Shown here: one piece after another, positions 27,133 through 41,907 of the stretch
How the letters are laid out: the number at the start of each line of letters is the position of its first letter
How positions within the stretch are numbered: position 1 is the stretch's first letter
DNA from: Candidatus Zambryskiibacteriota bacterium
Lineage (GTDB): Bacteria > Patescibacteriota > Minisyncoccia > Phycocordibacterales > DATDWN01
Reading direction: 5' to 3'
DNA: 64,000 bases
Assembly (NCBI GenBank): GCA_003173855.1
Contig: PPGI01000004.1
Span: 176-64,175, forward strand
The notes under the pieces: generated by a model
Databases searched by the model: none
Told to the model about the DNA's origin: nothing
The model's input: only the letters and a program-made list of their open reading frames with translations
Made by a program: the position numbers and the translations under genes

Positions 27133-28617
27133 ATGGAATTCGTTCCACTCTACTATGCCGAGCGTCTCCGGGTCGTGAATCCGACCGGAGATGTTGGAAT
27201 TGCAACACTATGGTCAAAAGTGGAGTCAGTTATCGAAGTTCTGGAAAGCTCTGGTGTGGATTTATCTCCAGAAACATCGAGAATTGTTGTAGTGGCTAAT
27301 CTGTACGGAAATGGTTTGCCACACATGCTCCGAAATCTTCTTCACAATCCACAGATTCACTACATTGTAATTTGCGGGAAAAACCTCTCTGGTTCGCGGG
27401 AGTGGCTCCTGAACTTCTTTGCGCACGGGCTTGAAGAAGTAATGTTTCTTGGAGCAAAGTCATTTCGGATCATTGGTACTGAAAGAATCATCGATGGCGA
27501 AGTCAGGCGGGAAGATTTTTCAAATCCTCCACAGATTTCTGTCTTTGGTGAAATTAGTTCCAACGAAACGAAAGTTGGTATCAAAACTTTTCTTGAAACT
27601 TTGCCTCCGAAAATTGGAGACGAAATTATAAGGATTGATCCGCCAGAAGTTCCGCAACCTGCTGTCACGCGTTTTCCATCGAATGCGTTTGGTCATCAGA
27701 TTTTGCGAGAGAGACCAACGGAAGCTTGGCGTGAGCTTATCTTCCGGCTCTATCGTTTTGGTCATCGTACCACTATTACAAAAAGTAGTGGCCCCGAGCA
27801 GCGCATCGAACTTCCAAATGTTCGTGTTGTTGTGGAAGATCCAAGTGAAGAGTCAAAAGAAATAGTTAGTTCGGCGGGGTTTAGCTTGGAAAGATTCCGT
27901 GATTATCAAAAACGGATTCTCGATCCCATAAAGCCTGCTGATCTCGATTACAGCTATGGCTCACTACTTCGTATGGGGCTCGATAAGAAGCCAATCGATT
28001 CGCTAGAAATCATTGCGGATCGAATGACTTCAAATCCTGACACACGAAGTGCCTTTGCAACTCTCTGGAATAACGCCATACACCTTCCGATGGGTCGTGA
28101 CCTTCCATGCTTCGTTACGTTTTTTTTCAGGCGATTCGAAGAAAAGCTCACGATGACTGCTACTTTCCGTGCACATAATGCGATGGATGCATGGCTCGAG
28201 AATTTTTACGGCCTTGCAGCTATTCAAAGATTTGTTACGGAAAGATCAGGTTTAGAACGTGGTCCCATAACGGTCATAAGTCATTCAATAAGCATTGACC
28301 CTAATGCTCTTTCTCGGGCCAAGAGTATTGTTGATGACAAAAAGACAGACGAGATTCTCGATAAATCAACTGGCAAATTGGGCCCTCGTTTTGATCCGAA
28401 CGGCGCCTTTACGGTGACTATCGATCGCTCGACACTTGAACTCGTTGTCGAGCATTCGTTTCAAGGCATGAAGCTTGGCGAATATCGCGGCAGGACAGTG
28501 GAGGAAATCGAACACCAACTCTCACGTGATGAGGTACTGTCCGTATTCTCACATGCACTTTACCTAGGACGAGAGCTTGCAAGAAAGGAGATGGAATTAA
28601 AAGTTCTAAAGAAATAA
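27133..28617 (+). CDS. Thymidylate synthase / dCMP-hydroxymethylase superfamily enzyme with a novel roughly 200-aa N-terminal extension
   Basis: C-terminal half aligns to ThyA: YSYGSLLR...IDSLEIIADRMTSNPDTRSAFATLWN ~ PVYGKQWR...[26 protein letters not shown]. Nucleophile Cys in PCF (ThyA PCH) at nt 28108-28110. GPITVISHSISI ~ GDFVWTGGDTHLY. Confidence 0.6.
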   Translation: MEFVPLYYAERLRVVNPTGDVGIATLWSKVESVIEVLESSGVDLSPETSRIVVVANLYGNGLPHMLRNLLHNPQIHYIVICGKNLSGSREWLLNFFAHGLEEVMFLGAKSFRIIGTERIIDGEVRREDFSNPPQISVFGEISSNETKVGIKTFLETLPPKIGDEIIRIDPPEVPQPAVTRFPSNAFGHQILRERPTEAWRELIFRLYRFGHRTTITKSSGPEQRIELPNVRVVVEDPSEESKEIVSSAGFSLERFRDYQKRILDPIKPADLDYSYGSLLRMGLDKKPIDSLEIIADRMTSNPDTRSAFATLWNNAIHLPMGRDLPCFVTFFFRRFEEKLTMTATFRAHNAMDAWLENFYGLAAIQRFVTERSGLERGPITVISHSISIDPNALSRAKSIVDDKKTDEILDKSTGKLGPRFDPNGAFTVTIDRSTLELVVEHSFQGMKLGEYRGRTVEEIEHQLSRDEVLSVFSHALYLGRELARKEMELKVLKK

Positions 28618-28620
28618 GAG

Positions 28621-28652
28621 AGCCCCGCTGCTAAGTCAGAGCGGGGCTTTTT
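28621..28652 (+). terminator. Strong GC-rich rho-independent terminator closing the island
   Basis: AGCCCCGCTG-CTAAGTCAG-AGCGGGGCT then TTTTGT. Confidence 0.7.
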
Positions 28653-28682
28653 GTAATTTGAGCTCAATGTTATCATTCCAAT

Positions 28683-29108
28683 ATGATTCTGAAGGTTAAA
28701 AAACTTCATTCAGATGCCATTTTGCCATCATATGCTCACCCAGGAGATGCCGGACTGGATATGTATTCAAATGAGACTGTGACAATTGAACCCGGGCAGG
28801 CACATAAGGTGAAAACTGGGATTGCATTCGAGATTCCAGACGGCTACGTGGGACTGATTTGGGATAAAAGTGGAGTAGCATTTAATCATAAATTAAAAAC
28901 TTTAAGCGGAGTGATAGATTCAGGATACAGAGGTGAAGCTATGCTTAGTCTCATAAATTTAAGCAATACACCTTGCACGATAGAAAAAGGTCATAAAGTC
29001 TCGCAAATGTTAATTCAAAAAGTGGAAACAGTTGAAGTGAAAGAGGTTAATGAATTATCAGAAACGAAACGTGGTGAAGGTGGTTTTGGAAGTACTGGAA
29101 GAAAATGA
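28683..29108 (+). CDS. dut: dUTP diphosphatase (dUTPase)
   Basis: AGLDM, GVIDSGYRGE, and C-terminal RGEGGFGSTG motifs. Confidence 0.85.
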   Translation: MILKVKKLHSDAILPSYAHPGDAGLDMYSNETVTIEPGQAHKVKTGIAFEIPDGYVGLIWDKSGVAFNHKLKTLSGVIDSGYRGEAMLSLINLSNTPCTIEKGHKVSQMLIQKVETVEVKEVNELSETKRGEGGFGSTGRK

Positions 29109-30727
29109 TGAGAGAAAAATTAGAAAATTTAATAAATACTGCGTTAAAAGAACTCAAATTAAATGAGTTTGTAAATACTCAGTTTGGAAAAATTTATAGT
29201 ATTGATTATCCAAAAAGAATGGATTTCGGGGATTATAGTACAAATGTTGGAATAATTATTGGAGGGTCGGGTCACCCAGAGGATATTTTGAAATGGCTTG
29301 ATGAGCATAAACCAGAAGAAGTTGAAAAAATTGAAACAAAAGCTGGTTTTATTAATTTTTTTCTTAGTCCAAATTATTTTGAAAATGTGTTAAAGAATTT
29401 AGAAATTCCAAAAAATTCTGACGAGAATTTATTTATTGAACACACTCAACCCAATCCATTTAAAGCTTTTCATATCGGTCATTTGATGAACAATGCAATA
29501 GGTGAATCAATTGCTCGAATCACAAAATCTCTTGGTGCTGAAGTTCAAACGGCAACTTATCATGGTGACAAAGGTTTGCATGTTGCTAAAGCTGTATGGG
29601 CAATAAAAAAAGGAAAGAATTTAAATGAAGCATATGCATTTGGAAACAAAGCATATGAAGAGGATCAAATTGCAAAAGAAGAAATAATTGAAATAAATAA
29701 AAAAATTTACGACGAAAGTGATCCGGAAATAAATCAAATTTATGAGGATGGAAGAAAAGAGTCACTCGAGCATTTTGAATCAATATACAAAATGCTTGGC
29801 AGCGAATTTGATTTCCATTTCTTTGAAAGTGAGACAGGAGAAGTTGGTAAAGAACTAGTCGAAGAAAATTTAGGTAAGGTTTTTGAAAAAAGTGAAGGAG
29901 CTGTAGTTTTTAAGGGAGAAAACTTTGAGCCTAAAACTCATACACGTGTTTTTCTAAACTCTGATGGACTTCCGACATATGAAGCTAAAGAACTTGGAAT
30001 TGCCAAACTAAAAAGTGATTTTTTTGATTTCGACAAGTCTATAACAATTACTGCAAACGAACAGGATTCATTTTTCAAAGTCGTTGAAGTAGTTATTGGT
30101 GAAGTAATGCCAGAACTCAAAGGCAAAATTATGCATCTATCTCATGGGCTTTTGAAATTACCAACTGGAAAAATGTCATCAAGAACCGGATCGATAATCT
30201 CTGTGGAGTCTTTAATTGATCAAGTTAAAGAAAAGGTAAAAGCTAAAATTGATGATGATAAAATCTCTGAGATTATTGCCCTAGGAGCAATTAAGTATTC
30301 GATTTTAAGACAAGGTATCGGTAAGGATATTATTTTTGATTTTGATAAATCGATTTCATTTGAAGGTGATTCTGGCCCATATTTACAATATTCAACAGTT
30401 CGAGCAAGATCGCTTTTAAAAAAGGCAGAAGGTGTTATTAAATTATCAAATAAACTTCCAGAAAGCTGGCAAACGACAAATTTGGAAAGAATGCTTGAGA
30501 GATTTCCATCAATCGTAGCTCGAGCAGGTTCAGAATTTGCTCCTCATTATGTTGCAACATATTTAATTCAGTTAGCATCCGAATTTAACCATTTCTACAA
30601 TGAACACAAAATAATTGATGAAAAAGATCCTAAATCTCCTTATCGTTTAACTTTGGTTAAAGCATTTTCTGAAGTGATGGAAATGGGACTTGATTTACTT
30701 GCTATAAAAATACCAGACAGAATGTAA
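29105..30727 (+). CDS. argS: Arginyl-tRNA synthetase
   Basis: HIGH motif (FHIGHLMNN), DALR anticodon-binding domain, and the characteristic C-terminal ...DRM. Confidence 0.8.
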   Translation: MMREKLENLINTALKELKLNEFVNTQFGKIYSIDYPKRMDFGDYSTNVGIIIGGSGHPEDILKWLDEHKPEEVEKIETKAGFINFFLSPNYFENVLKNLEIPKNSDENLFIEHTQPNPFKAFHIGHLMNNAIGESIARITKSLGAEVQTATYHGDKGLHVAKAVWAIKKGKNLNEAYAFGNKAYEEDQIAKEEIIEINKKIYDESDPEINQIYEDGRKESLEHFESIYKMLGSEFDFHFFESETGEVGKELVEENLGKVFEKSEGAVVFKGENFEPKTHTRVFLNSDGLPTYEAKELGIAKLKSDFFDFDKSITITANEQDSFFKVVEVVIGEVMPELKGKIMHLSHGLLKLPTGKMSSRTGSIISVESLIDQVKEKVKAKIDDDKISEIIALGAIKYSILRQGIGKDIIFDFDKSISFEGDSGPYLQYSTVRARSLLKKAEGVIKLSNKLPESWQTTNLERMLERFPSIVARAGSEFAPHYVATYLIQLASEFNHFYNEHKIIDEKDPKSPYRLTLVKAFSEVMEMGLDLLAIKIPDRM

Positions 30728-30751
30728 TAAAAATGCTAGTATGACCTCTAT

Positions 30752-33700
30752 ATGGAAAAAGGAGAAGATAAATCCTTAAAAAGTCCAATTGCTATAAAGG
30801 AGGAAGAAATACTAGCTTTCTGGAAAGAAAACAAAATTTTTGAGAAGTCGTTAGAGAAAAAATCGCCAAAAGGTGAGTTTGTATTTTACGATGGTCCAGC
30901 AACTGCAAATACAAAACCAGTTTTTCATACAATGGAACCTTTTGCTTTCAAGGATTTGATTCCACGCTACAGAACAATGCGAGGTTATCACGTTCGTAGA
31001 AAGGGTGGGTGGGACACTCATGGTTTGCCAGTTGAATTGCAGATTGAGAAAAAACTTGGATTTAAATCAAAAAAAGATATTGAAAATTTTGGTATCGCCG
31101 AATTTAACAGACTCTGTAAAGAAAGTGTCTGGGAATTTATCGGATTGTGGAAAGATTTCACTTCGAGAATGGCTTACTGGGCTGATCAAGACAATGCTTA
31201 CGTCACTTACGATAACGCATACATCGAATCTGTATGGAATGTAATTAAATATGTTAATGACAGAAATTTACTCTACAAGGATTACAAAGTTCTACCTTGG
31301 TGTCCAAGATGTGGAACCGCTCTTTCTTCTCATGAGCTTGCTCAAGGATATCAAGATGACAAAGATCTTTCAGTAACTGCAAAATTTAAAGTTGTTGGGG
31401 AAGAAAATACGTATTTACTTGCTTGGACAACGACTCCTTGGACTTTGCCTGGAAATGTTGCTCTAGCTGTAGGGGCCGATATTGATTACGTAAAAATAAA
31501 AAAAGGAGAGGAATTTTTAATTCTGGCTAAAGAAAGATTATCAATTGTTGAAGACGAATATAAGATAGTTGAAGAATTCAAAGGTGTGAAATTAGTCGGT
31601 TTAAAATACGAGCCACTTTACCACTATCTTGCAAATAAATTTGATAAAAAAGATCCGATTGCTTTCGAAAAATCTTATCAAATCTACGCTGCGCCTTTTG
31701 TAAACACTGAAGATGGAACAGGAATTGTTCATACGGCTGTAATGTATGGCCAGGATGATTTTGTCCTAGGGACATCTGTCGGTTTGCCGAAGCATCATTT
31801 GGTAAAAGATGATGGGCATTTTGGAGATGATATGGATTTTCTCTCAGGCAGGTTTGTTAAAGACGAAGAGGTGGCAGTAGATATTGTTAAAGATTTGGCC
31901 AAGAGAGGATTATTGTTTGATAAAAAATATTATACTCACTCGTACCCTCATTGTTGGAGATGCAAAACTCCGCTTATTTATTATGCGCGAGATTCTTGGT
32001 ACATCTCGATGTCAAAATTGCGTTCAGAACTTGTTCGTGAAAACGAAGAAATTCATTGGGAACCAGAACATATTAAAGAAGGCCGATTTGGTGAGTGGCT
32101 TCGTGAGATAAAGGATTGGGCGCTTTCTCGAGAGAGATATTGGGGAACACCTCTGCCTGTTTGGTTTGATGATGAAGGAAATTTTACAGTTCTGGGTTCA
32201 ATTGAAGATTTAAAAAAACACATAAAAACTTCGGGGAATAAATATTTTTTGATGCGACATGGTTGGGCACTTTGTAATGAAAAAAATGTAGAAAGTTTAA
32301 ATCCAGGAGAAGAAAATGATTCAATAACCGAAAAGGGAATTGCTGAAGCAAAAAAATCATTAGGAAAATTAAAAAATATAGATTTAATTGTTACATCCAA
32401 TTTTCGACGAGCAAAACAGACTGCAGAACTTGCTGCAGAATATTTTGGAATTCCAAAAAATGAAATTATCGTTGATGAGGGTTTGTGTGAAGATGAGGGC
32501 ACAATGGAGCATTTTGCTGGAGTTCGAAAAAGAATGGTTGAAGCTATGTCAGATCTAGAGAAAAAAAATTTAAATAAAAATATTCTAGTTATTTCTCATC
32601 AGTACCCGCTTAGAGTTTTGATTTCATCACATGAAGCATTTAACGAAAGAGAAGAAAAAGAAAAATTTGAAGTTACTCCATTTGATACCGGAGAAATTAG
32701 AGAAATTAATTTCTTGCCATTACCTCGAAATTCCAATTCCGAAGTAGATTTACACCGACCATACATCGATGAAGTCGAGTTAGTAGATAAAAATGGAAAG
32801 AAATTACAGCGTGTAAAAGAGGTGATGGATGTTTGGTTTGATTCAGGTTGTATGCCATTTGCCCAAGATCATTATCCGTGGAATAGAGATATACTTTATC
32901 CTGCAGATTTTATTTCGGAGGCTATCGATCAGACGCGAGGCTGGTTTTATACGTTGCATGCAATTGGAGTGTTAATGGAAAAAGGCAGAGCGTTTAAAAA
33001 TGTAATTTGTCTCGGACATATTCTTGATAAAGAGGGCAAAAAAATGTCGAAATCTGTCGGCAATGTTGTTGATCCTTGGACAGTTATAGATAAATTTGGT
33101 GTCGATGCATTGCGTCTCTGGATGTATTCAGTAAATTCTCCGGGAGATTCAAAAAACTTTGATGAGAAAAGTGTGGATGAATTAATAAAAAAAGTCTTCA
33201 ATCCATTAAACAATATCGTAGCATTTTACGAATTATATAAAGACGAGAACACAAAAACGACTAACAAAAGCAAAAATGTTTTAGATAAGTGGATACTATC
33301 GAGGTTCGCACAGTTAATTAAAAGTGGGACAGAAAACATGGATAATTTCAAAGTTTTTGAATCAGCACGCCCGATAAGAGATTTTGTAAATGATTTTTCA
33401 ACTTGGTATGTCAGACGATCACGAGATAGGTTTAAGTCTGATAATGTTGACGAAAAGAACGAAGCTCTTGGAACAACTTTGTTTGTACTAATGGAATTGG
33501 CAAAATACATGGCACCGTTCACACCATTTTTTGCTGAAGAAATTTATCAAAAACTTAAGACTTCAAATGATCCAGAAAGTGTTCATTTAGAGAATTGGCC
33601 AGAAGCACCAAAGTTAGACAATGGTTTGCTCGATCAAATGGAAAAAGCTAGAGTTGTTGTATCTCGAGCACTGGAACTTAGACAAAAAGCAGGTCACAAA

Positions 33701-34075
33701 ATTCGTCAGCCATTGCAAAGTCTTTCTATTCCAGAAAAATTTGATAGAGAAATGCTAGAAATTATTGCTGACGAAGTGAATGTAAAAGTAGTAAAAATTT
33801 CTGGGAATGAAGTTGTTCTTGATACGAATCTCACAGAAGAACTTAAAACCGAAGGAATAATGAGAGATGTTATTCGTTTTATTCAAGATTCAAGGAAAAC
33901 AAAAGGATTGCTCGCTACAAAAGTTGTCTCGGCAACGATTTTCCTCCCGAATTCGATAGCAGAAGTTGTATCTACATATAAAAGCGAAATTATAAAAATT
34001 ACTAATCTTTCTGAACTTCAAGTGGTAATAGATAAAAAAGAAGGTGAAGAATTGAATGTTGATTTTGTGTCATAA
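30752..34075 (+). CDS. ileS: Isoleucyl-tRNA synthetase (type 2) with an inserted histidine-phosphatase-like domain and a degenerate HIGH motif
   Basis: WDTHGLPVE, WCPRCGTALSSHE, WALSRERYWGTPLP, DLHRPYID, KMSKSVGN all IleRS-like. About 155-aa insert with RHG...TSNFRRAKQTA...VISHQ between WGTPLP and DLHRPYID. Confidence 0.8.
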   Translation: MEKGEDKSLKSPIAIKEEEILAFWKENKIFEKSLEKKSPKGEFVFYDGPATANTKPVFHTMEPFAFKDLIPRYRTMRGYHVRRKGGWDTHGLPVELQIEKKLGFKSKKDIENFGIAEFNRLCKESVWEFIGLWKDFTSRMAYWADQDNAYVTYDNAYIESVWNVIKYVNDRNLLYKDYKVLPWCPRCGTALSSHELAQGYQDDKDLSVTAKFKVVGEENTYLLAWTTTPWTLPGNVALAVGADIDYVKIKKGEEFLILAKERLSIVEDEYKIVEEFKGVKLVGLKYEPLYHYLANKFDKKDPIAFEKSYQIYAAPFVNTEDGTGIVHTAVMYGQDDFVLGTSVGLPKHHLVKDDGHFGDDMDFLSGRFVKDEEVAVDIVKDLAKRGLLFDKKYYTHSYPHCWRCKTPLIYYARDSWYISMSKLRSELVRENEEIHWEPEHIKEGRFGEWLREIKDWALSRERYWGTPLPVWFDDEGNFTVLGSIEDLKKHIKTSGNKYFLMRHGWALCNEKNVESLNPGEENDSITEKGIAEAKKSLGKLKNIDLIVTSNFRRAKQTAELAAEYFGIPKNEIIVDEGLCEDEGTMEHFAGVRKRMVEAMSDLEKKNLNKNILVISHQYPLRVLISSHEAFNEREEKEKFEVTPFDTGEIREINFLPLPRNSNSEVDLHRPYIDEVELVDKNGKKLQRVKEVMDVWFDSGCMPFAQDHYPWNRDILYPADFISEAIDQTRGWFYTLHAIGVLMEKGRAFKNVICLGHILDKEGKKMSKSVGNVVDPWTVIDKFGVDALRLWMYSVNSPGDSKNFDEKSVDELIKKVFNPLNNIVAFYELYKDENTKTTNKSKNVLDKWILSRFAQLIKSGTENMDNFKVFESARPIRDFVNDFSTWYVRRSRDRFKSDNVDEKNEALGTTLFVLMELAKYMAPFTPFFAEEIYQKLKTSNDPESVHLENWPEAPKLDNGLLDQMEKARVVVSRALELRQKAGHKIRQPLQSLSIPEKFDREMLEIIADEVNVKVVKISGNEVVLDTNLTEELKTEGIMRDVIRFIQDSRKTKGLLATKVVSATIFLPNSIAEVVSTYKSEIIKITNLSELQVVIDKKEGEELNVDFVS

Positions 34076-34659
34076 TGGCTTATAATATTTATACAACTGA
34101 TGCTATTGTCCTGAAGCACTTAACTTCAGGCGATGCTGATTTAACTTTGTTTGTCCTGACTCGTGATTTGGGATTAATAATTGCTTCAGCTAAATCAGCA
34201 AGATTAGATAAATCGAAATTAAAAGGAGCACTTCAAGAATATTCTTACGGAAGTATTTCTTTTGTTCGAGCGCAATCTATCTGGAAAGTAACAAACGCCA
34301 AAAGCGAAGGGAATTTTTATTTCCAAAATCAGAAATTTGGCCAGGAAATTTTAGCTAGGATTTCTAGAGTTTTAACTCAGACAATTGTGGGCGAGTCTCC
34401 TCACAAGGAAATCTTCGAAATAGTTTCAAGTGGATTTAGCATTCTAAAAGATATTGAAGAAAATGATATAGCTAATTTTGAAATCTTGATTGTTCTGCGA
34501 ATTTTGTTTGAACTCGGCTATGTGGCAAAAGAAAAAAATAATGAGATGTATTTTAAAGACCCAAATGATTGGGGAAAGGAAATTCTCGACAAAACGTCTA
34601 AACATAGGACTATGCTAGTCAACTTGATTAACACTGCTCTAAAAGAAAGCCAATTATAA
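34075..34659 (+). CDS. recO: DNA repair protein RecO-like (short form, no zinc domain)
   Basis: N-terminal OB-fold pattern AIVLK...GDADLTLFVLTRDLGLIIASAKSARLDKSKLKGALQ resembles RecO (KGARSKRSTLKGALQ). Confidence 0.55.
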   Translation: MAYNIYTTDAIVLKHLTSGDADLTLFVLTRDLGLIIASAKSARLDKSKLKGALQEYSYGSISFVRAQSIWKVTNAKSEGNFYFQNQKFGQEILARISRVLTQTIVGESPHKEIFEIVSSGFSILKDIEENDIANFEILIVLRILFELGYVAKEKNNEMYFKDPNDWGKEILDKTSKHRTMLVNLINTALKESQL

Positions 34660-34689
34660 AGTTTTAATGGTATAATAAAGACCTCTTAT

Positions 34690-36594
34690 ATGACTGATTT
34701 TGATAAAAGTCGAATTGAAAAGCTGAAACAAACCTTGTATTCGAGGAACGAAAACATTGTTCCGAAGGAAAAACGCACTCCTGTGGAGGGTCACAATGTT
34801 GATGCACCTACAAATTGGGGTGAACCAAAAACATTTGAGTTTAATCCAGAGACAATGGCTCGTAAGAATAATTCTTTTTTCAATAAATTTCTACTCTGGT
34901 CTGTAATTTTTTTTGTTATTGCAGTGGGTGCAGCTATTTTTAGTTTTATGGGTGGTTTTAATATGATTTCCTCAAACAACTTAGATATTAAGGTTGTTTC
35001 TCCAAGTTCGGTTTCTTCTGGTGAAGAATTGGATATGGGTTTAACTATTTTAAATGCGAATCGTACTGATCTTACAGATGTGAGTCTTGAAATTATTTAT
35101 CCAGAGGGGAGTCAATCTGTGGGGGACAACTCAAAACCGCTGACTCGTGAGACAGAAGATCTTGGTACCATAAAAGCTGGAGGTAGTGCAAATTATACTC
35201 TCCGAGCATTGCTTTTTGGTGAAAAAGATTCGATAAAAACATTTGATTTGCGTTTGGAATATAAAGTTAAAAATTCAAACGCAGTATTTTCAAAGGAAAA
35301 ATTCTACGATGTTTCTATTGGCTCTTCGCCGTTACTTTTAAATGTTACTTATCCTCAAGAAATAAATTCTGGCCAGGATGTTCAGCTTTCTGTTGATGTC
35401 ACGTCCAATTCACCCGTTGTTCTATCAAACACGCTGTTAAAAGTTGAGTATCCATACGGATTTACTTACAAATCATCAAATATCAGACCGTTGCGAAATA
35501 ATTCCGTGTGGAATATCGGTGATTTAAAAAATGGTGACAAAAAAACTTTGGTTATTACCGGAACTTTGGTCGGCCAAGATCAAGAAGACAGATCGTTTAG
35601 AGTTTCTGTCGGCACACCATCATCTCCAGGGGACAGTGATTTCAGTACAGCCTTATCAGAATTTTTGGCCACTGTTGGTATCAGAAAATCCTTCTTTAAT
35701 CTTGAACTTGTTCCGGCAAATGGCTCAAGTGTTACGGCTCCAGGCCAATCTGCAGGCATAGCTATCAAGTGGCAGAACACCCTTCCTGATAAAATAGAAT
35801 CGAGCCAAATTCAAGCAACAATTTTTGGCAATGGATTTGATCACAATCAAGTTTCTGTTGGAAACAGTGGATTTTATCGTTCAGTCGATAACACTGTTTT
35901 GTGGGACAAATCTCAGGACAAGGATTTAATCGAAATCTTGCCAGGTGATGCTGGATCGGTAAGCTTAACTCCCAGTGCACTAAACGAAGCTTCAATTCGG
36001 CAAGTTCGCAATCCGCACATCGATGTTCATGTTGTGATGTCTGGCTCAAGATCCGGAACGCAATCTGGTCCTGTTCAATCAACAGCAGATATCAGCATTA
36101 AAGTAGCATCGACACTGACTTTGGCAGCAAAATCATTTAGAAATAATGGAACATTTTCTAACACTGGACCAATTCCTCCGCGAGCTGACCAAGAAACGAC
36201 CTATACAGTAAATTGGCTTCTAACTAACACCACAAACGATATTTCCAATACAACGGTTTCTGCAACTTTGCCACCGGGAGTTTCTTGGAAAGGGCAAACT
36301 AGTCCATCGGGAGAAAAAATTAATTATAATCCAGATTCTCACGTAGTTACTTGGAATGCTTCAAATGTCTCGGCTGGAACAGGATTTAATTATTCACCAC
36401 GGCAAGTTTCTTTCCAAGTTGGCATTACTCCAAGCGTTAATCAAATAAATACAGTTCCGCCGCTAACATCAAGCATTCAAGTTTCGGGTACAGATAGTTG
36501 GACAAATACGCCAGTAGCCCTTACTTTACCAGCGGTTACTACTCAATATAGTGATCCGGGATCGGGAGCTGCTCAAGCAACAGTTGTAAAGTAG
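34690..36594 (+). CDS. Large type-II membrane / surface protein, beta-rich, unknown function
   Basis: About 70-aa cytoplasmic N-terminus, one TM, then about 540 aa S/T/N-rich predicted beta domains. Confidence 0.45.
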   Translation: MTDFDKSRIEKLKQTLYSRNENIVPKEKRTPVEGHNVDAPTNWGEPKTFEFNPETMARKNNSFFNKFLLWSVIFFVIAVGAAIFSFMGGFNMISSNNLDIKVVSPSSVSSGEELDMGLTILNANRTDLTDVSLEIIYPEGSQSVGDNSKPLTRETEDLGTIKAGGSANYTLRALLFGEKDSIKTFDLRLEYKVKNSNAVFSKEKFYDVSIGSSPLLLNVTYPQEINSGQDVQLSVDVTSNSPVVLSNTLLKVEYPYGFTYKSSNIRPLRNNSVWNIGDLKNGDKKTLVITGTLVGQDQEDRSFRVSVGTPSSPGDSDFSTALSEFLATVGIRKSFFNLELVPANGSSVTAPGQSAGIAIKWQNTLPDKIESSQIQATIFGNGFDHNQVSVGNSGFYRSVDNTVLWDKSQDKDLIEILPGDAGSVSLTPSALNEASIRQVRNPHIDVHVVMSGSRSGTQSGPVQSTADISIKVASTLTLAAKSFRNNGTFSNTGPIPPRADQETTYTVNWLLTNTTNDISNTTVSATLPPGVSWKGQTSPSGEKINYNPDSHVVTWNASNVSAGTGFNYSPRQVSFQVGITPSVNQINTVPPLTSSIQVSGTDSWTNTPVALTLPAVTTQYSDPGSGAAQATVVK

Positions 36595-36714
36595 CTCAAG
36601 TCTTTTTGTCCGATTTCTGCGTTGAAACCTCAAAAATGATCGTCACCTTACTATTAGTAAGGCTCCTCACATTTTCTCATTTCGCCTTGAACTCAATCAA
36701 AAATTTTTCGAGCA
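36592..36714 (+). repeat. Intergenic repeat element copy B
   Basis: TAGCTCAAGTCTTTTTGTCCGATTTCTGCG...CACCTTAC-TATTA-GTAAGGCTC...CGCCTTGAACTCAATCAAAAAT. Begins with the stop TAG. Confidence 0.8.
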
Positions 36715-36750
36715 ATTGAAACTATTGGTACTTTACGTTAACATACAAAT

Positions 36751-38097
36751 ATGTCGGAAACTCAAGATCTAATGGAAAAAATCGTCTCCCTTTGTAAACG
36801 ACGTGGTTTTGTCTTTCAAGGATCTGAAATTTATGGAGGACTTTCAGGTATTTATGATTACGGACCATTAGGAGTAGAGTTAAGAAATAATATTAAGCAG
36901 TATTTCTGGCAAAAATTTATTACTGAACGTGATGATGTTTACGGAATGTCTGCTGCAATTTTAATGCCCAGAAAAGTTTGGGATGCATCAGGACATACTG
37001 GAGAAGCTGGTTTAAATGATCCGCTCGTTGAATGTAAAATTTGTCATGAGCGTGTTCGAGCAGATCAGCCTGAAGCAATAGCTGAACATGAAAAAAAGCA
37101 TGAAGGCAAAAAAGTTGAATGGACCGAGCCAGTGAAATTTAATTTGCTAGTGGAAACTAAACTTGGGTCGTCAGAGAAATCACAAATTGATGTTAATCTT
37201 CGTGGAGAAATTACTCAAGGAGTCCATGTAAATTTTAAAAATGTTTTGGATTCAATGCATCCAGAACTGCCTTTTGGAATTGGCCAAATTGGAAAAGCAT
37301 TTAGAAATGAAATTACTCCAAGAGATTTTCTTTTCCGACAAAGGGAATTTGAACAAATGGAATTGCAATACTATATTAAACCTGAAGAAGAAGAAGGAAA
37401 AAAATGGTTTGAATATTGGAAGCGATTTGCATGGGATTGGTATTTTGGTCTTGGATTTAAAAAAGAAAATCTCCGATTTCGACAGCATGCAGAAGATGAG
37501 CGGGCTCATTATGCAAAAGACGCTTGGGACATAGAATACAATACTCCATTTGCCGGATGGAAAGAAGCATGGGGGATACACCATCGTGCTGACTGGGATT
37601 TAAGGCGACACTCTGAATATTCAGGCGTTGATCTTTCATATTATGATGAAGAAAAAAAAGACAGACTTATTCCTTGGGATATTGAATGTTCAGGTGGAGT
37701 AGACAGAGCTGTTCTTTTTGTAATGCTTGAAGCCTATACTGAAGATGAGCTTGGTGGCGAGACAAGAACTTATTTAAAATTTTCTCCAAAACTTGCACCT
37801 GTAAAAATTGCAGTTTTTCCTTTGCTAAAAAATAAACCGGAGTTGGTAGAAAAAGCGCAGTCAATTTATAAAGAATTGAAAAAAGAATTCGGGGCAGTAG
37901 AGTTTGATGATAATGGCAATATTGGAAAGCGATATCGTAGGCAAGATGAAATCGGTACACCTTGGTGTGTGACTGTTGATTTTGAAACCATCGAGAAAGA
38001 CGCGGGTGTAACTCTTCGAGATAGAGATACAGGAGAGCAAAAAAGAATGTCTGTACAAGAAGTCAAAGATTTTGTAAAATCACAACTCTCAAATTAA
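36751..38097 (+). CDS. glyQS: Glycyl-tRNA synthetase (dimeric GlyQS type)
   Basis: N-terminal VSLCKRRGFVFQGSEIYGGLSGIYDYGPLG. Class II motifs. Confidence 0.9.
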   Translation: MSETQDLMEKIVSLCKRRGFVFQGSEIYGGLSGIYDYGPLGVELRNNIKQYFWQKFITERDDVYGMSAAILMPRKVWDASGHTGEAGLNDPLVECKICHERVRADQPEAIAEHEKKHEGKKVEWTEPVKFNLLVETKLGSSEKSQIDVNLRGEITQGVHVNFKNVLDSMHPELPFGIGQIGKAFRNEITPRDFLFRQREFEQMELQYYIKPEEEEGKKWFEYWKRFAWDWYFGLGFKKENLRFRQHAEDERAHYAKDAWDIEYNTPFAGWKEAWGIHHRADWDLRRHSEYSGVDLSYYDEEKKDRLIPWDIECSGGVDRAVLFVMLEAYTEDELGGETRTYLKFSPKLAPVKIAVFPLLKNKPELVEKAQSIYKELKKEFGAVEFDDNGNIGKRYRRQDEIGTPWCVTVDFETIEKDAGVTLRDRDTGEQKRMSVQEVKDFVKSQLSN

Positions 38098-38100
38098 ATT

Positions 38101-39369
38101 ATGAATTTTAAAAAGAAAACCTTAAAAAACGGGTTACGGATGGTTGTTGTACCTATGAAAGGATCTCCTTCAGTTACAGTTATGTCTCTAATTGAAGCTG
38201 GTTCTGAATACGAGGCAAAGGATAAAAACGGAATTTCTCATTTTCTTGAGCATATGTTTTTTAAAGGTACGACAAAGCGCCCGACATCTTTGGACATTTC
38301 TAAAGAATTTGACGGAATGGGTTCAGAGCACAACGCTTTTACATCAAATGAGGTCACTGGATATTATGGCAAAGCGGCTAACAAAAATTTCGAAAAAATC
38401 CTGGATTTGATTGCTGATATGTATTTGAATCCTACTTTTCCAAAAGATGAATTGGAAAAAGAAAAAGGAGTAATTACAGAAGAAATAAATATGTACGAAG
38501 ATTTGCCTCAGCGAAGCGTCCATGAGGTTTTTCAAGAGCTTTTGTATGGTGACACGCCATTTGGCTGGACAATTCTCGGTCCAAAAGAAAATATTAAAAA
38601 AATGGTTCGCGATGATTTTATCAATTATCGGGACACTCATTATGTTGCTCCAAAAACTCTCGTTATAGTTGCGGGAGATGTAAACCCATTTATTGCTTTC
38701 AGTAAAATTGAAAAAGCATTTAAGAATGTTCCTGTAGGCAGAGTAGTCGGTAAGCCTAAATTTAGGGAATCACAAAACGGCCCGCAAATTAAAATAAAAA
38801 ATAAAGAAACAGATCAGAGCCACCTGATCATAGGTTTTAGAACTTTTTCTATTCGTGACAAAAGAATGACAGCATTAAAAGTTCTTTCAACAATTTTGGG
38901 ACACGGCATGAGCTCACGATTATTTCAAAAAATGCGCGAGGAACTCGGAATTTGCTACTACGTGAGATCCGGAATAAATGATCTAACTGATCACGGTAAT
39001 TTTGTTATTGCTGCAGGAGTAGACAAAAATCGACTTGACCAGGCAATCAAAGGAATCTTAAGCGAGCTAAAGAAAATTGTTGACGATTCAGTTTCTGAAG
39101 AAGAGCTTAAAAAAGCCAAGGATTACCTAGTCGGTACAATGTATTTAGGTCTTGAATCATCAGATTCACTCGCACAATTTTTCGGATTTCAAGAAATAAT
39201 GAGAGAAAAATTAAAGACTCCAAAGGAAATGGAAAAAGAAATTATGCGTGTAAAATCCGGAGATATAAAAAAACTGGCAAAACAAATTTTTACAGATAAA
39301 AATTTAAATTTGGCAGTGGTCGGAAAAGTGGAAAACGAAGCGCAAATCAAAAAATTATTTCATTTTTAA
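38101..39369 (+). CDS. M16-family zinc peptidase (insulinase-like)
   Basis: HFLEHMFFKGT inverted zinc-binding motif (HxxEH). Confidence 0.8.
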   Translation: MNFKKKTLKNGLRMVVVPMKGSPSVTVMSLIEAGSEYEAKDKNGISHFLEHMFFKGTTKRPTSLDISKEFDGMGSEHNAFTSNEVTGYYGKAANKNFEKILDLIADMYLNPTFPKDELEKEKGVITEEINMYEDLPQRSVHEVFQELLYGDTPFGWTILGPKENIKKMVRDDFINYRDTHYVAPKTLVIVAGDVNPFIAFSKIEKAFKNVPVGRVVGKPKFRESQNGPQIKIKNKETDQSHLIIGFRTFSIRDKRMTALKVLSTILGHGMSSRLFQKMREELGICYYVRSGINDLTDHGNFVIAAGVDKNRLDQAIKGILSELKKIVDDSVSEEELKKAKDYLVGTMYLGLESSDSLAQFFGFQEIMREKLKTPKEMEKEIMRVKSGDIKKLAKQIFTDKNLNLAVVGKVENEAQIKKLFHF

Positions 39370-39398
39370 TTCACATTAAGTAGTGCTATTATTACTTT

Positions 39399-40475
39399 AT
39401 GGATCTTCGAGAACAAACAATACATATAAGTGTTGGTACGATCGTTAAAGCGATTGTTATTGTTCTCATCTTTGCACTTTTCTTTTATTTAAAAAGCCTG
39501 GTTCTAGTTGTACTAATGTCTATTGTTGTTGCCTCGGCAGTGGAGCCGGCAACAAGTTGGTTTGTTAGACGTGGGTTGCCCCGATTGTTTGCTGTTATTT
39601 TAATCTATCTTTCGATGGCCATTGCTTTTGTTGGAATAATTTATTTTCTTCTTTTGCCGCTTCTTTCAGAATCAAGTGATTTTTTGAAAAATTTTCCGAC
39701 TTATTTCAACGCAAGCACAGTCTCATCAACGATTGCTAACAATCCATATTTATCAAATCAACCTTTTGTTGAAGGACTAACAAACAGCGTTAATCTTCAA
39801 GCAGTCATCGGAAAAATTAATGACATCATAACTAGTCTTTCAACAGACTCATTCCAAACAATTACTAAATTTTTTGGCGGACTTTTAAGTGTTATTTTGA
39901 TGATCGTGCTGTCATTTTATCTGGCTGTAGAAGATGATGGAGTTGGAAAGTTCCTAAAAGCTGTGACAACACTTAAGCATGAAAGATATGTTATTGCGCT
40001 TTGGCGACGATCACAGAGAAAAATTGGACTTTGGATGCAAGGTCAACTTGTGCTCGCTATTATTATCGGAATGCTCGTTTATCTTGGTCTTCTATTAATC
40101 AATGTTCCAAATGCGCTGGTGCTCGCTTGTCTTGCTGCGGCTTTTGAGATTATCCCTCTTTTCGGGCCGATTCTTGCCTCAATACCAGCAATTGGCATTG
40201 CTTTTGTTAGCGGCGGTCTCTCACTTGCTCTTGTTGTTGTTTGTCTCTATATCATAGTGCATCAATTTGAAAACCAGCTCATTTATCCTCTTGTTGTGAA
40301 AAAAGTTGTGGGAGTTTCTCCGGTAGTTTCAATTATTGCGCTTGTTGCTGGTTGGGAATTAGCAGGATTTATCGGACTAGTCCTTTCTGTTCCGATCGCC
40401 ACAGTATTGATTGAATTCTTCAATGATCTCGAAAAAGATAAAATTGAGAAAATTGAAAGAATGAACAATGCCTAA
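39399..40475 (+). CDS. AI-2E family (PerM/UPF0118) membrane transporter
   Basis: Eight TM helices with the family-typical layout. Confidence 0.55.
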   Translation: MDLREQTIHISVGTIVKAIVIVLIFALFFYLKSLVLVVLMSIVVASAVEPATSWFVRRGLPRLFAVILIYLSMAIAFVGIIYFLLLPLLSESSDFLKNFPTYFNASTVSSTIANNPYLSNQPFVEGLTNSVNLQAVIGKINDIITSLSTDSFQTITKFFGGLLSVILMIVLSFYLAVEDDGVGKFLKAVTTLKHERYVIALWRRSQRKIGLWMQGQLVLAIIIGMLVYLGLLLINVPNALVLACLAAAFEIIPLFGPILASIPAIGIAFVSGGLSLALVVVCLYIIVHQFENQLIYPLVVKKVVGVSPVVSIIALVAGWELAGFIGLVLSVPIATVLIEFFNDLEKDKIEKIERMNNA

Positions 40476-41907
40476 GATGGATTCTAAGAATCTCTATATA
40501 ACAACTACTCTTCCTTATGTAAACGCTGATCCACATATCGGTTTTGCTTTTGAACTGGTTCAGGCTGACATTATTGCTCGTGTCAAAAAACTTCAAGGAT
40601 TTAATGTTTTTTTTAACACAGGTACAGACGAGCATGGAATGAAAATTTTCCAAAAAGCTAAGGAAGAAGGCAAAGATCCGCAGGCTTACGTTGATGAATA
40701 TGCAGAAAAATTTAAACAGCTTAAAAATAATCTAAATCTTGATCCAGGTCTGCATTTTATCCGCACTACTGATTCAAAACATATTGAAGCTGCACAAGAA
40801 ATTTGGAAGAAATGTTTTAAAAAAGGCGATATTTATAAAAAAAAATACAAAGGCTTGTATTGTGTAGGGGATGAAGCTTTTGTTAAAGAATCCGATTTAG
40901 TTGATGGAAAATGTCCAAATCATCCAAATATGGACTTAGTAGAAATCGAAGAGGAAAATTATTTTTTTAAACTGACAAATTACAAAGAACAATTAAAAGA
41001 ATATCTAAACAAAAAAGAATCGGTTATTCCAGAAACTCGCAGGAAAGAAGCTCAATCAATTGTTGATGCTCTGGAAGACATAAGCATTTCTCGCGATAAG
41101 TCACGATTTTCTTGGGGAGTTCCTGTTCCAGAAGACGACTCACAAGTGATGTATGTGTGGTTTGATGCACTGACAAGTTACATTTCAACTTTAGGTTGGC
41201 CAAATTCCGATGAATTCGACAAATTTTGGACAAATGGGCAAACTCTGCAGCTTGCTGGAAAAGATCAGGTTAAATTTCAATCTATTATCTGGCAGGCGAT
41301 GCTTTTCTCTGCTGACCTACCTAACACCAAAACTGTCCTCTATCACGGATTTATTACCTCAGGAGGCAAAAAAATGTCTAAATCCCTTGGGAATGTCATT
41401 AATCCCAATGATTTGATCGAAAAATATGGGGTAGACGCTCTGCGTTACTATTTGGCTAGGGAAGTGACACCTTTTGAAGACTCTGATGTTACGGAAGAAA
41501 AATTCAAAGTTGCTTATAATGCTAATTTGGCAAATGGCTTAGGTAATCTAGTTTCTCGCGTCATGAAAATGGCCGAAGACAATTTGGAAGAAGCAGTAAA
41601 AATTGTTGAATTTGAAGATATGAATAAATTTTTTGGAATTATAAATAATTTTGAAATCAACAAAGCTGCTGATTATATCTGGTTAGAAATAGGAAAGATG
41701 GATTTGTTTATTCAGGAAAATGTACCATTTAAAGTTGTTAAGACTGATAAAGATGCAGGACAGAAAATGATTTCAGAACTTGTTACTCGTTTGTATTCAG
41801 TCGCTCGAATGCTAAATCCAATTCTCCCTGAAACATCATCAAAAATTAAAGAACTAATAGAACAAAACAAATCTCCTGGCCAGCCGTTATTTGCTAGAAT
41901 GGATTAA
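40468..41907 (+). CDS. metG: Methionyl-tRNA synthetase (short form)
   Basis: LYITTTLPYVNADPHIGFAFE (HIGH-region, here HIGF), KMSKSLGN, anticodon-binding helical domain. Confidence 0.85.
   Translation: MPKMDSKNLYITTTLPYVNADPHIGFAFELVQADIIARVKKLQGFNVFFNTGTDEHGMKIFQKAKEEGKDPQAYVDEYAEKFKQLKNNLNLDPGLHFIRTTDSKHIEAAQEIWKKCFKKGDIYKKKYKGLYCVGDEAFVKESDLVDGKCPNHPNMDLVEIEEENYFFKLTNYKEQLKEYLNKKESVIPETRRKEAQSIVDALEDISISRDKSRFSWGVPVPEDDSQVMYVWFDALTSYISTLGWPNSDEFDKFWTNGQTLQLAGKDQVKFQSIIWQAMLFSADLPNTKTVLYHGFITSGGKKMSKSLGNVINPNDLIEKYGVDALRYYLAREVTPFEDSDVTEEKFKVAYNANLANGLGNLVSRVMKMAEDNLEEAVKIVEFEDMNKFFGIINNFEINKAADYIWLEIGKMDLFIQENVPFKVVKTDKDAGQKMISELVTRLYSVARMLNPILPETSSKIKELIEQNKSPGQPLFARMD

What the first reader, a model, noticed from the sequence alone, without database searches (positions are those of the whole stretch)
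30890..30940. IleRS HIGH signature is degenerate ([14 protein letters not shown] instead of PPTANGLPHVGHA)
The flanking sequence aligns residue-for-residue with canonical IleRS (FYDGP..TAN......[24 protein letters not shown]). At the HxGH position, however, the sequence reads VFHT. Both histidines of the ATP-binding HIGH motif are displaced or lost, while KMSKS (KMSKSVGN) is intact. Together with the phosphatase insert, this raises the question whether this is a catalytically altered or neofunctionalised IleRS, or whether CPR IleRS tolerates this change.
Basis: seen in the sequence. Interest (0 to 1): 0.55.

Follow-up and report, generated by a model that had tools for sequence, protein, structure and literature searches.

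The report
One-histidine signature motif in IleRS
The isoleucine tRNA-charging enzyme of this tiny groundwater-type bacterium really lacks two of the classic ATP-site histidines, but dozens of relatives conserve the same variant, so it is most likely a working enzyme with a new version of an already known altered motif that has been linked to antibiotic resistance.

Summary
ileS (30752-34075, +) reads V57-F58-H59-T60 (nt 30920-30931) where class I synthetases have H-x-G-H. KMSKS, the editing motifs and the anticodon domains are intact.

HxGH is the wrong comparator. This is a type 2 IleRS, and all 120 closest relatives carry the published non-canonical G/A-x-H-H motif or a derivative of it. 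V-[FL]-H-T goes one step further: the third-position His is kept, and the fourth His becomes Thr.

The variant is invariant in 18 of the 120 closest relatives, in 5 full-length genes among 80 GTDB genome loci, and in about 41 metagenome contigs. It sits in the same argS-ileS-recO locus as the ordinary alleles. So it is not an error, a pseudogene or a spare paralogue. A separate Patescibacteria IleRS2 lineage has P-L-H-T.

The unexpected part is the distribution. V-type residues are confined to aa 46-161, and this block has a genealogy discordant with the rest of the gene and with flanking genes. That points to cassette-like exchange. The ALHH and GIHH forms show the same block-limited pattern.

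Verdict: a functional new variant of a known kind. Resistance to natural IleRS inhibitors is the most plausible driver, but it is untested. A second, divergent ileS elsewhere in the genome could not be excluded.

The parts
30752..34075 (+). ileS, a type 2 isoleucyl-tRNA synthetase of 1107 aa with an inserted histidine-phosphatase domain
   Evidence: ORF. Pfam finds tRNA-synt_1, His_Phos_1, Anticodon_1 and DUF5915. Best solved relatives are 1ILE and 8C8U/V/W, E about 1e-223.
30920..30931 (+). Signature-motif position reading V57-F58-H59-T60 (canonical H-x-G-H; known IleRS2 variant G/A-x-H-H)
   Evidence: His59 is invariant in all relatives examined. V57 and T60 are invariant in all V-type relatives.
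30893..30955 (+). Motif-bearing block [21 protein letters not shown] (aa 48-68). V-type residues A/V50, V57, T60, M61, P63 and F64 replace P50, G/A57, H60, L61, A/S63 and R64.
   Evidence: Discriminating columns; group consensus sequences.
30887..31234 (+). Active-site module aa 46-161. By class I architecture this is inferred to be the first half of the Rossmann fold, spanning the HIGH helix to helix alpha2. It holds all V-type-specific residues and has its own genealogy.
   Evidence: The second cluster of V-type residues (aa 121-151) overlaps the region matching P. megaterium IleRS2 residues 123-130, which lie next to the HXGH motif.
31427..31456 (+). Editing-domain Thr-rich motif TTTPWTLPGN, intact
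31715..31759 (+). Editing-domain motif GTGIVHTAVMYGQDD, intact
32225..32740 (+). His_Phos_1 (PF00300) domain inserted between the two halves of the catalytic domain (aa about 492-663; RHG at 32255-32263). Present in relatives of every motif type.
33041..33055 (+). KMSKS loop, intact
29105..30727 (+). argS, the upstream synteny anchor, with a canonical HIGH motif
   Evidence: neighbour annotations
34075..34659 (+). recO-like gene, the downstream synteny anchor

Best explanation
This is the housekeeping type 2 isoleucyl-tRNA synthetase of a Parcubacteria/Paceibacteria bacterium. It carries a further-derived form of the known non-canonical IleRS2 signature motif.

Shown:
- The clade's usual state is G/A-x-H-H.
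- The window has V-F-H-T. It keeps the third-position His, which in G/AxHH enzymes takes over the catalytic role of the first His (PMC10485003). It replaces the fourth His with Thr.
- About 15-20 further residues change with it, in the motif-bearing block and in aa 104-151.
- The whole set is invariant or nearly so in many relatives. Everything else needed for Ile activation, editing and tRNA binding is conserved.
- The gene occupies the same locus as the ordinary alleles.

Inferred:
- The enzyme still activates isoleucine, with His59 plus the KMSKS lysines stabilising the transition state. Thr60 supplies at most a hydrogen bond.
- Natural class I enzymes without a fourth His make this plausible: bacterial TrpRS has TIGN, and many MetRS have HxG[F/Y/T/S].

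Inferred, less certain:
- The aa 46-161 block behaves as an exchangeable cassette with three alleles (A-type ALHH, G-type GIHH, V-type V[FL]HT). These have moved between divergent lineages by intragenic recombination.
- The most plausible selective agent is natural IleRS inhibitors of the mupirocin kind. The changed residues sit on or beside positions that contact mupirocin, and they include the fourth His.
For: - Type 2 IleRS with all domains present.
- Motif census: 120 closest homologues give ALHH 53, GIHH 43, V[FL]HT 18, PLHS 1. The 80 GTDB loci give VLHT 5, PLHS 2. The metagenome scan gives VLHT 36, VFHT 5, PLHS 6, PLHT 2.
- Purifying selection: V-type modules are about 83-85% identical in amino acids, while codon identity at conserved residues is about 0.48, close to the 0.41 baseline.
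- Other functional motifs are equally conserved in V-type and other relatives.
- Same argS-ileS-recO locus.
- No assembly has two loci, and the window has no second ileS.
- The known G/AxHH motif is functional and gives up to 1000-fold mupirocin resistance, with the third His replacing the first. A fourth-position H-to-Q change arises in laboratory mupirocin-resistant S. aureus.
- Cassette behaviour: every fully discriminating column lies in aa 47-151. Module identity is V-V 0.845 against V-N 0.68, while the rest of the protein is 0.593 against 0.600. The V trait needs 13-16 changes on the rest-of-protein tree in all 60 bootstraps, but one change on the module tree. Triplet tests give 31:2 in the module against 44:204 in the rest.
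- Flanking ArgRS and RecO confirm that V-type genomes are close relatives of A- or G-type genomes (81-83% ArgRS) and distant from each other (RecO 33-37%).
- Positive control: in the insert-less P-L-H-T lineage, discriminating columns spread over the whole protein.
- Fourth-His loss in other class I enzymes: TIGN in TrpRS, and 49 of the 139 best MetRS representatives with a matchable motif lack it.
Against: - No enzymology exists for any x-x-H-[T/S] IleRS, so activity is inferred from conservation only.
- The rest of this genome could not be scanned, so a second, divergent ileS (for example type 1) is not excluded.
- Synonymous sites are saturated even between the closest backbone pairs. There is therefore no DNA-level proof of recombination, and no recent transfer event was caught.
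- Intermediates exist (P0136, P0010, L027, P0090) that also fit stepwise in-situ evolution.
- Distance matrices of other gene segments agree only moderately with each other, so the backbone tree is itself noisy or mosaic.
- The link to inhibitors rests on analogy with IleRS1/IleRS2 work in other bacteria.
Confidence: 0.78

Rival explanations
1. The V-type IleRS is a catalytically impaired or neofunctionalised synthetase, perhaps working through its phosphatase insert, and a second, canonical IleRS elsewhere in the genome charges tRNA-Ile.
For: Two of the three conserved signature-motif residues are non-canonical and the fourth His is gone. An unusual His_Phos_1 domain is inserted. The rest of the genome could not be searched.
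Against: - The phosphatase insert is in all 120 relatives, including ordinary G/AxHH ones, so it does not track the motif.
- The gene occupies the same argS-ileS-recO locus as the ordinary alleles.
- KMSKS, editing, zinc-knuckle and anticodon-domain motifs are fully conserved.
- There is no rate acceleration outside the module.
- No assembly gave two ileS loci, and the 64-kb window has none.
- From general knowledge, these small genomes rarely keep duplicate synthetases.
Confidence: 0.05
2. The V-type module arose repeatedly in place, by parallel coupled substitutions that switch between a few stable active-site configurations, rather than by recombination or transfer of a DNA segment.
For: - The changed residues fall in two stretches, the motif-bearing block and aa 104-151. 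The second overlaps the region that PMC10485003 places next to the HXGH motif, so strong epistasis is plausible.
- Partial or intermediate forms exist.
- Fourth-His loss arose independently in another lineage.
- Synonymous sites give no sign of recent import.
Against: - This would need 13 or more independent origins of the same 15-20 residue set, many requiring two nucleotide changes each.
- V-type sequences also resemble each other at module columns that do not distinguish the types: 14:2, 7:2 and 5:1 as the filter tightens, against 44:204 in the rest, and 0.685 against 0.535 identity.
- In P0007 the block is bounded on both sides by backbone-type sites.
Confidence: 0.2
3. The enzyme is functional, but the variant has nothing to do with inhibitors. 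It is kinetic tuning, for example altered ATP affinity or turnover suited to a slow-growing symbiont, or a nearly neutral alternative packing of the active site.
For: Non-canonical motifs change KM and kcat modestly (Table 1 of PMC10485003). Fourth-position variation is common in MetRS without any known link to antibiotics. No inhibitor data exist for these organisms.
Against: Discordant spread of a tightly conserved block across distant lineages suggests positive or balancing selection rather than neutrality. The changed positions coincide with residues implicated in mupirocin binding or resistance, namely the fourth His and its neighbours.
Confidence: 0.3
4. Sequencing, assembly or frame error in this 50-nt stretch.
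For: None beyond its rarity relative to the textbook motif.
Against: The reading frame is intact. The same motif appears in independent assemblies from NCBI, JGI, ENA and Logan; for example the P0014 cluster has 17 members on 25 contigs. His to Thr needs two base changes.
Confidence: 0.01

Closest known systems
IleRS2 with the non-canonical G/A-x-H-H signature motif (D. radiodurans ALHH, S. griseus; Brkic et al. 2023, PMC10485003)
   Same: Type 2 IleRS. His at the third motif position and no His at the first. The nearest relatives of the window's protein have exactly ALHH or GIHH. The motif is a housekeeping-compatible alteration of the ATP site.
   Different: The first position is Val (or Pro in sister forms), not Gly/Ala. 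The fourth His, which is kept in every motif form that paper describes, is Thr (or Ser). Arg at +4 becomes Phe, and about 15 further residues up to aa 151 change with it. No kinetic or inhibition data exist.
Canonical HVGH type 2 IleRS with solved structures (T. thermophilus 1ILE/1JZQ/1JZS; P. megaterium IleRS2 8C8U/8C8V)
   Same: Full-length alignment at E about 1e-223. Same domain order, KMSKS, editing site, zinc knuckles and type 2 C-terminus.
   Different: The signature motif differs. A histidine-phosphatase domain of about 170 aa is inserted between the catalytic half-domains.
Class I synthetases that naturally lack the fourth His: bacterial TrpRS (TIGN) and many MetRS (HxG[F/Y/T/S/N])
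   Same: They show that a class I active site can work without the fourth His. 49 of the 139 best MetRS representatives with a matchable motif, including this window's own MetRS (HIGF), lack it.
   Different: These are different enzyme families. They keep Gly at position 3 and, in MetRS, His at position 1. None has the single-His-at-position-3 arrangement.
Mosaic drug-target alleles created by intragenic recombination (for example penA and pbp2x; my own knowledge, not tested here)
   Same: An internal block of an essential target gene has a genealogy discordant with the rest of the gene and with the genome.
   Different: Here the donors and recipients are very divergent, synonymous sites are saturated, no selective agent is known, and recombination is inferred rather than shown.

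Membership tests
Isoleucyl-tRNA synthetase, type 2 (IleRS2) | Class I catalytic domain (PF00133) with a KMSKS loop | tested here: met
   Pfam E = 1.5e-108. KMSKS at aa 764-768.
Isoleucyl-tRNA synthetase, type 2 (IleRS2) | Type 2 C-terminal organisation (Anticodon_1 plus an ARD3/DUF5915-type end, no IleRS1 zinc-binding C-terminus) and closest similarity to IleRS2 structures | tested here: met
   PF08264 and PF19302 hits. 1ILE and 8C8U/V/W score about 745-750 bits, against 320 bits for IleRS1 structures 1FFY and 8C9E.
Isoleucyl-tRNA synthetase, type 2 (IleRS2) | CP1 editing domain with the Thr-rich and GTG.VH...D motifs | tested here: met
   TTTPWTLPGN and GTGIVHTAVMYGQDD are present and conserved.
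Isoleucyl-tRNA synthetase, type 2 (IleRS2) | Isoleucine activation and tRNA-Ile charging activity | not testable with these tools
   Inferred only, from conservation and from the single-copy conserved locus.
Class I aaRS canonical signature (H-x-G-H) | His at position 1, Gly at position 3, His at position 4 | tested here: not met
   V57, H59 and T60.
IleRS2 non-canonical G/A-x-H-H motif class (PMC10485003) | His at the third position | tested here: met
   H59, invariant in every relative examined.
IleRS2 non-canonical G/A-x-H-H motif class (PMC10485003) | Gly or Ala at the first position | tested here: not met
   Val57.
IleRS2 non-canonical G/A-x-H-H motif class (PMC10485003) | His retained at the fourth position | tested here: not met
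   Thr60.
IleRS2 non-canonical G/A-x-H-H motif class (PMC10485003) | Millimolar Ki for mupirocin (hyper-resistance) | not testable with these tools
   No biochemical data.
Redundant or neofunctionalised aaRS paralogue | Coexists with a canonical copy in the same genome | tested here: inconclusive
   No second ileS in the 64-kb window. All 80 loci come from 80 different assemblies.
Redundant or neofunctionalised aaRS paralogue | Relaxed constraint or loss of other functional motifs, and a non-orthologous genomic position | tested here: not met
   Equal conservation to relatives. Orthologous argS-ileS-recO position.

The most novel reading that the evidence does not exclude
Patescibacteria IleRS2 has evolved a third class of signature motif, x-x-H-[T/S], in which a single histidine at position 3 suffices for catalysis. 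In the phosphatase-bearing Paceibacteria clade, the roughly 115-residue active-site block that carries it is one of three discrete cassettes (A-, G- and V-type). These are shuffled between distantly related genomes by intragenic recombination, under selection from natural IleRS inhibitors. This would be a mosaic resistance-allele system in an essential synthetase of uncultivated symbiotic bacteria.
Probability: 0.3. Interest if true: 0.75.

Novelty: new variant of a known kind. Interest (0 to 1): 0.52.

Why it matters
The HIGH motif is one of the two defining signatures of class I synthetases. In 2023 it was reported as remarkable that IleRS2 can swap positions 1 and 3 (G/AxHH) and thereby become hyper-resistant to mupirocin. 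The present variant shows that nature went further: the fourth His is also dispensable in at least two Patescibacteria lineages, leaving one histidine.

This gives ready-made natural sequences for testing three things:
- what the fourth His contributes in IleRS2;
- how far the ATP site can be remodelled;
- whether such remodelling raises inhibitor resistance further.

The block-wise, genome-discordant distribution of three active-site alleles suggests that even an essential translation enzyme in reduced-genome bacteria is a target of recombination-driven allele exchange. That can be tested with denser genome sampling.

For annotation, motif-based flags of 'degenerate HIGH' should not be read as loss of function in IleRS2 or MetRS.

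Tried and rejected
- Sequencing or assembly error: rejected. The frame is intact, the Thr codon is two changes from His, and the motif recurs in independent assemblies.
- Second ileS in the window: tblastn found only ileS itself and a weak class I hit that is MetRS.
- Synonymous-site tests for recombination, on 81 genes and on the three closest V/N backbone pairs fetched for the purpose: uninformative. Codon identity at conserved residues is 0.41-0.53 everywhere, so the sites are saturated.
- Homologue search with the 137-aa module alone: it returned only short gene fragments. These were useful for spotting intermediates (P0127, P0136, P0186) but not for a census.
- Literature searches found nothing on the phosphatase insert in IleRS, on CPR HIGH-motif variants, or on the structural role of the fourth His in IleRS.
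- Structure prediction was not run. The tool returns no coordinates, so residue contacts around the motif could not have been measured.
- A whole-genome check for a second ileS was not possible.
Full report
**1. The observation**

The ORF at 30752-34075 (+) encodes a 1107-aa protein. The DNA at 30920-30931 reads GTT TTT CAT ACA, which is V57-F58-H59-T60, inside ...[53 protein letters not shown]....

Pfam finds tRNA-synt_1 (E = 1.5e-108), an inserted His_Phos_1 domain, Anticodon_1 and DUF5915. The best solved relatives are T. thermophilus IleRS (1ILE) and P. megaterium IleRS2 (8C8U/V/W), at E about 1e-223. IleRS1 structures score far lower. The protein is therefore a type 2 IleRS.

The HMMER alignments put VFHT exactly on HVGH of 1ILE and on GVHH of the engineered 8C8W. 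KMSKS is intact at aa 764-768.

**2. The right comparator**

Brkic et al. 2023 (PMC10485003) showed that many natural IleRS2 carry a non-canonical G/A-x-H-H motif. In those enzymes:
- the third-position His occupies the place of the catalytic first His;
- activity is about normal (D. radiodurans ALHH enzyme);
- the motif raises the Ki for mupirocin by up to 1000-fold.

Among the 120 closest homologues of the window's protein (56-68% identity, all with the phosphatase insert), none has HxGH. The counts are ALHH 53, GIHH 43, AFHH/GTHH/GVHH 5, V[FL]HT 18 and PLHS 1. The window's motif is therefore a derivative of G/AxHH. What is new is Val at position 1 and Thr at position 4.

**3. A conserved, selected state**

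V57, H59 and T60 are invariant in all V-type sequences:
- 18 of the 120 homologues;
- 5 full-length genes among 80 species-representative GTDB genome loci, plus one truncated V-like gene;
- about 41 JGI/ENA metagenome contigs.

V-type modules are 83-85% identical in amino acids. Codon identity at conserved residues is only about 0.48, against a baseline of about 0.41. That indicates strong purifying selection.

All other functional landmarks are as conserved in V-type as in other relatives. These are WDTHG, the CPRCGT/CWRCKT zinc knuckles, the editing motifs TTTPWTLPGN and GTGIVHTAVMYGQDD, DQTRGWFYTLH and KMSKS. Outside the module, V-type proteins are no more divergent than others (0.593 against 0.600-0.618).

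**4. The ordinary ileS locus**

In the window the gene order is dut-argS-ileS-recO-DUF11 protein-class II synthetase. The same order surrounds both V-type and G/A-type ileS in the GTDB loci and in six contigs fetched individually.

The phosphatase insert is present whatever the motif, so the two oddities are unrelated. The window has no second ileS, and all 80 GTDB loci come from 80 different assemblies. A divergent second ileS elsewhere in this genome cannot be excluded with the tools available.

**5. Precedent for losing the fourth His**

Bacterial TrpRS uses TIGN in place of HIGH (PMC10201369).

The window's own MetRS (40468/40477-41904) reads HIGF where T. thermophilus MetRS has HLGH. Of its 150 best representative relatives, 139 had a matchable motif, and 49 of those have F, Y, T, S, N, Q or A at the fourth position.

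Brkic et al. call positions 1 and 3 the most conserved of the motif, and they mention a fourth-position H-to-Q change in laboratory mupirocin-resistant S. aureus.

A separate Patescibacteria IleRS2 lineage without the phosphatase insert has P-L-H-T followed by xVPM[S/T]FKD. It appears in 24 protein clusters, some on contigs of 0.6-0.95 Mb. P-L-H-S forms also occur. So x-x-H-[T/S] is a recurrent state that always keeps the third His.

**6. The unexpected part: a block with its own history**

*Where the V-type residues lie.* Every alignment column that fully separates V-type from other relatives lies between aa 47 and 151. The clearest positions are 47, 50, 57, 60, 61, 63, 64, 104, 121, 134, 140 and 144. 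No column beyond aa 155 separates the types strongly.

The second cluster of these positions (aa 121-151) overlaps the region that corresponds to P. megaterium IleRS2 residues 123-130. Brkic et al. place those residues (the helix alpha2 kink and W130) next to the HXGH motif (the window numbering is +3).

*Identity by region.*

| Region | V-V | V-N | N-N |
|---|---|---|---|
| Module | 0.845 | 0.68 | 0.78 |
| Remaining ~950 residues | 0.593 | 0.600 | 0.618 |

*Discordance with the backbone.*
- Individual V-type proteins have A- or G-type proteins as nearest backbone relatives: P0007/P0026 at 81%, P0016/P0019 at 78%, P0119/P0088 at 77%.
- In P0007 against P0026, the 160 residues after the module are 94% identical, while the module is 63% identical.
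- On bootstrapped NJ trees of aa 156 to the end, the V trait needs 13-16 changes in all 60 replicates. On the module tree it needs one change in 58 of 60 replicates.
- In triplet tests, P0007 matches a V-type partner at 31 module sites and its backbone sister at 2. In the rest of the protein the counts are 44 and 204.
- After removing type-discriminating columns the bias persists (14:2, 7:2, 5:1 as the filter tightens).
- The V-supporting block in P0007 runs from aa 46 to 161 and has backbone-type sites on both sides.

*Flanking genes agree with the backbone.* ArgRS is 83% and 81% identical within the V/A pairs, but 60% between the two V-type genomes. RecO is 76% identical within P0119/P0088, but 33-37% between P0119 and the other V-type genomes.

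*The ALHH and GIHH forms behave the same way.* Their discriminating columns also lie only in aa 54-155, and they need 17-19 changes on the backbone tree.

*Positive control.* In the insert-less P-L-H-T lineage the discriminating columns spread over the whole protein, as expected for a simple clade.

**7. Interpretation of the mosaic**

The simplest reading is that aa 46-161 behaves as an exchangeable active-site cassette with three alleles, moved between lineages by intragenic recombination.

Several caveats apply:
- Synonymous sites are saturated even in the closest pairs, so there is no DNA-level breakpoint evidence.
- Intermediates or chimeras exist. These are P0136 (V-type motif helix with an N-type second half), P0010 (ALHH with several V-like residues), L027/P0127 and L005/P0090.
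- Distance matrices of other gene segments correlate only moderately, and less with distance along the gene. This suggests gene-wide mosaicism or noise.
- Repeated parallel switching between epistatically stable states remains a rival, at roughly 20%.

**8. Mechanism**

*Shown.* The third-position His is retained. The fourth His and the Arg one helical turn later (position 64) are lost together, in favour of Thr and Phe. Nearby residues on the motif-bearing block and in aa 104-151 change with them, while the second half of the catalytic domain is unchanged.

*Inferred.* Isoleucyl-adenylate formation proceeds with His59 and the KMSKS lysines stabilising the transition state. Thr60 offers at most a hydrogen bond.

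*Why it is selected.* The changed residues are the fourth His, the residue next to the conserved Pro, and the +3 position. These lie on or beside positions that bind mupirocin in IleRS1 and that mutate in resistant laboratory strains. Together with the discordant spread of the block, this makes selection by natural IleRS inhibitors the most plausible driver, at roughly 35%. It is untested. Kinetic tuning is the main alternative.

**9. Verdict**

The feature is real, and it is a lineage-specific and almost certainly functional variant. It is not a dead or repurposed enzyme. It is a new variant of a known kind, the non-canonical IleRS2 signature motif. I found no description of x-x-H-[T/S] motifs or of CPR IleRS in the papers searched.

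Interest is moderate, for two reasons. The variant extends a recent, well-noticed result to a one-histidine motif. Its block-wise, genome-discordant distribution is unexplained and can be tested.

Noticed in passing
window 40534-40545 (within MetRS, ORF about 40468-41904, +): The MetRS signature motif reads H-I-G-F where T. thermophilus MetRS has H-L-G-H; KMSKS is intact. Of its 150 best representative relatives, 139 had a matchable motif, and 49 of those have a non-His fourth residue (F 28, T 6, Y 5, S 4, N 3, Q 2, A 1). ArgRS in the same window keeps a canonical HIGH.
   Followed up: partly
window 32225-32740 (IleRS aa about 492-663): A histidine-phosphatase (PF00300) domain with an RHG motif (32255-32263) is inserted between the two halves of the IleRS catalytic domain. 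It is present in all 120 closest homologues whatever their signature motif. No paper describing it was found. Its function is unknown.
   Followed up: partly
P0001-P0120 alignment, IleRS aa 54-155: The ALHH-type and GIHH-type relatives also differ only within the same N-terminal block (positions 54, 57, 58, 98, 101, 121, 127, 130-132, 146-155) and are scattered over the backbone tree (17-19 changes). The block therefore appears to exist in three discrete allelic forms. Distance-matrix correlations between gene segments fall with distance along the gene.
   Followed up: partly
L087 (2145-2183) and proteins P0405-P0426, P0453, P0455: A separate Patescibacteria IleRS2 lineage without the phosphatase insert carries P-L-H-T followed by xVPM[S/T]FKD. 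It forms a coherent clade, with some members on contigs of 0.6-0.95 Mb. Discriminating residues there include positions near the KMSKS region.
   Followed up: partly
P0095 and P0110 (relatives): Two phosphatase-bearing IleRS relatives are 1314-1349 aa long and additionally carry an HD domain (PF01966).
   Followed up: no
P0136, P0010, L027/P0127, L005/P0090, P0186: Intermediate or chimeric forms of the signature region occur. They include a V-type motif helix with an N-type second half, ALHH with V-like flanking residues, PLHS with either EAR or VPR, and GVHR.
   Followed up: partly
window 27133-41904: Nucleotide-metabolism and translation genes are clustered: a 494-aa ORF at 27133-28617 (its homologues in related contigs hit thymidylate-synthase families: Thy1, and Thymidylat_synt/PterinBD-DUF4346), dUTPase, ArgRS, IleRS, RecO-like, a DUF11 protein, a class II synthetase (36742-38094) and MetRS. 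The argS-ileS-recO-DUF11-class II aaRS order is conserved across Paceibacteria contigs.
   Followed up: partly
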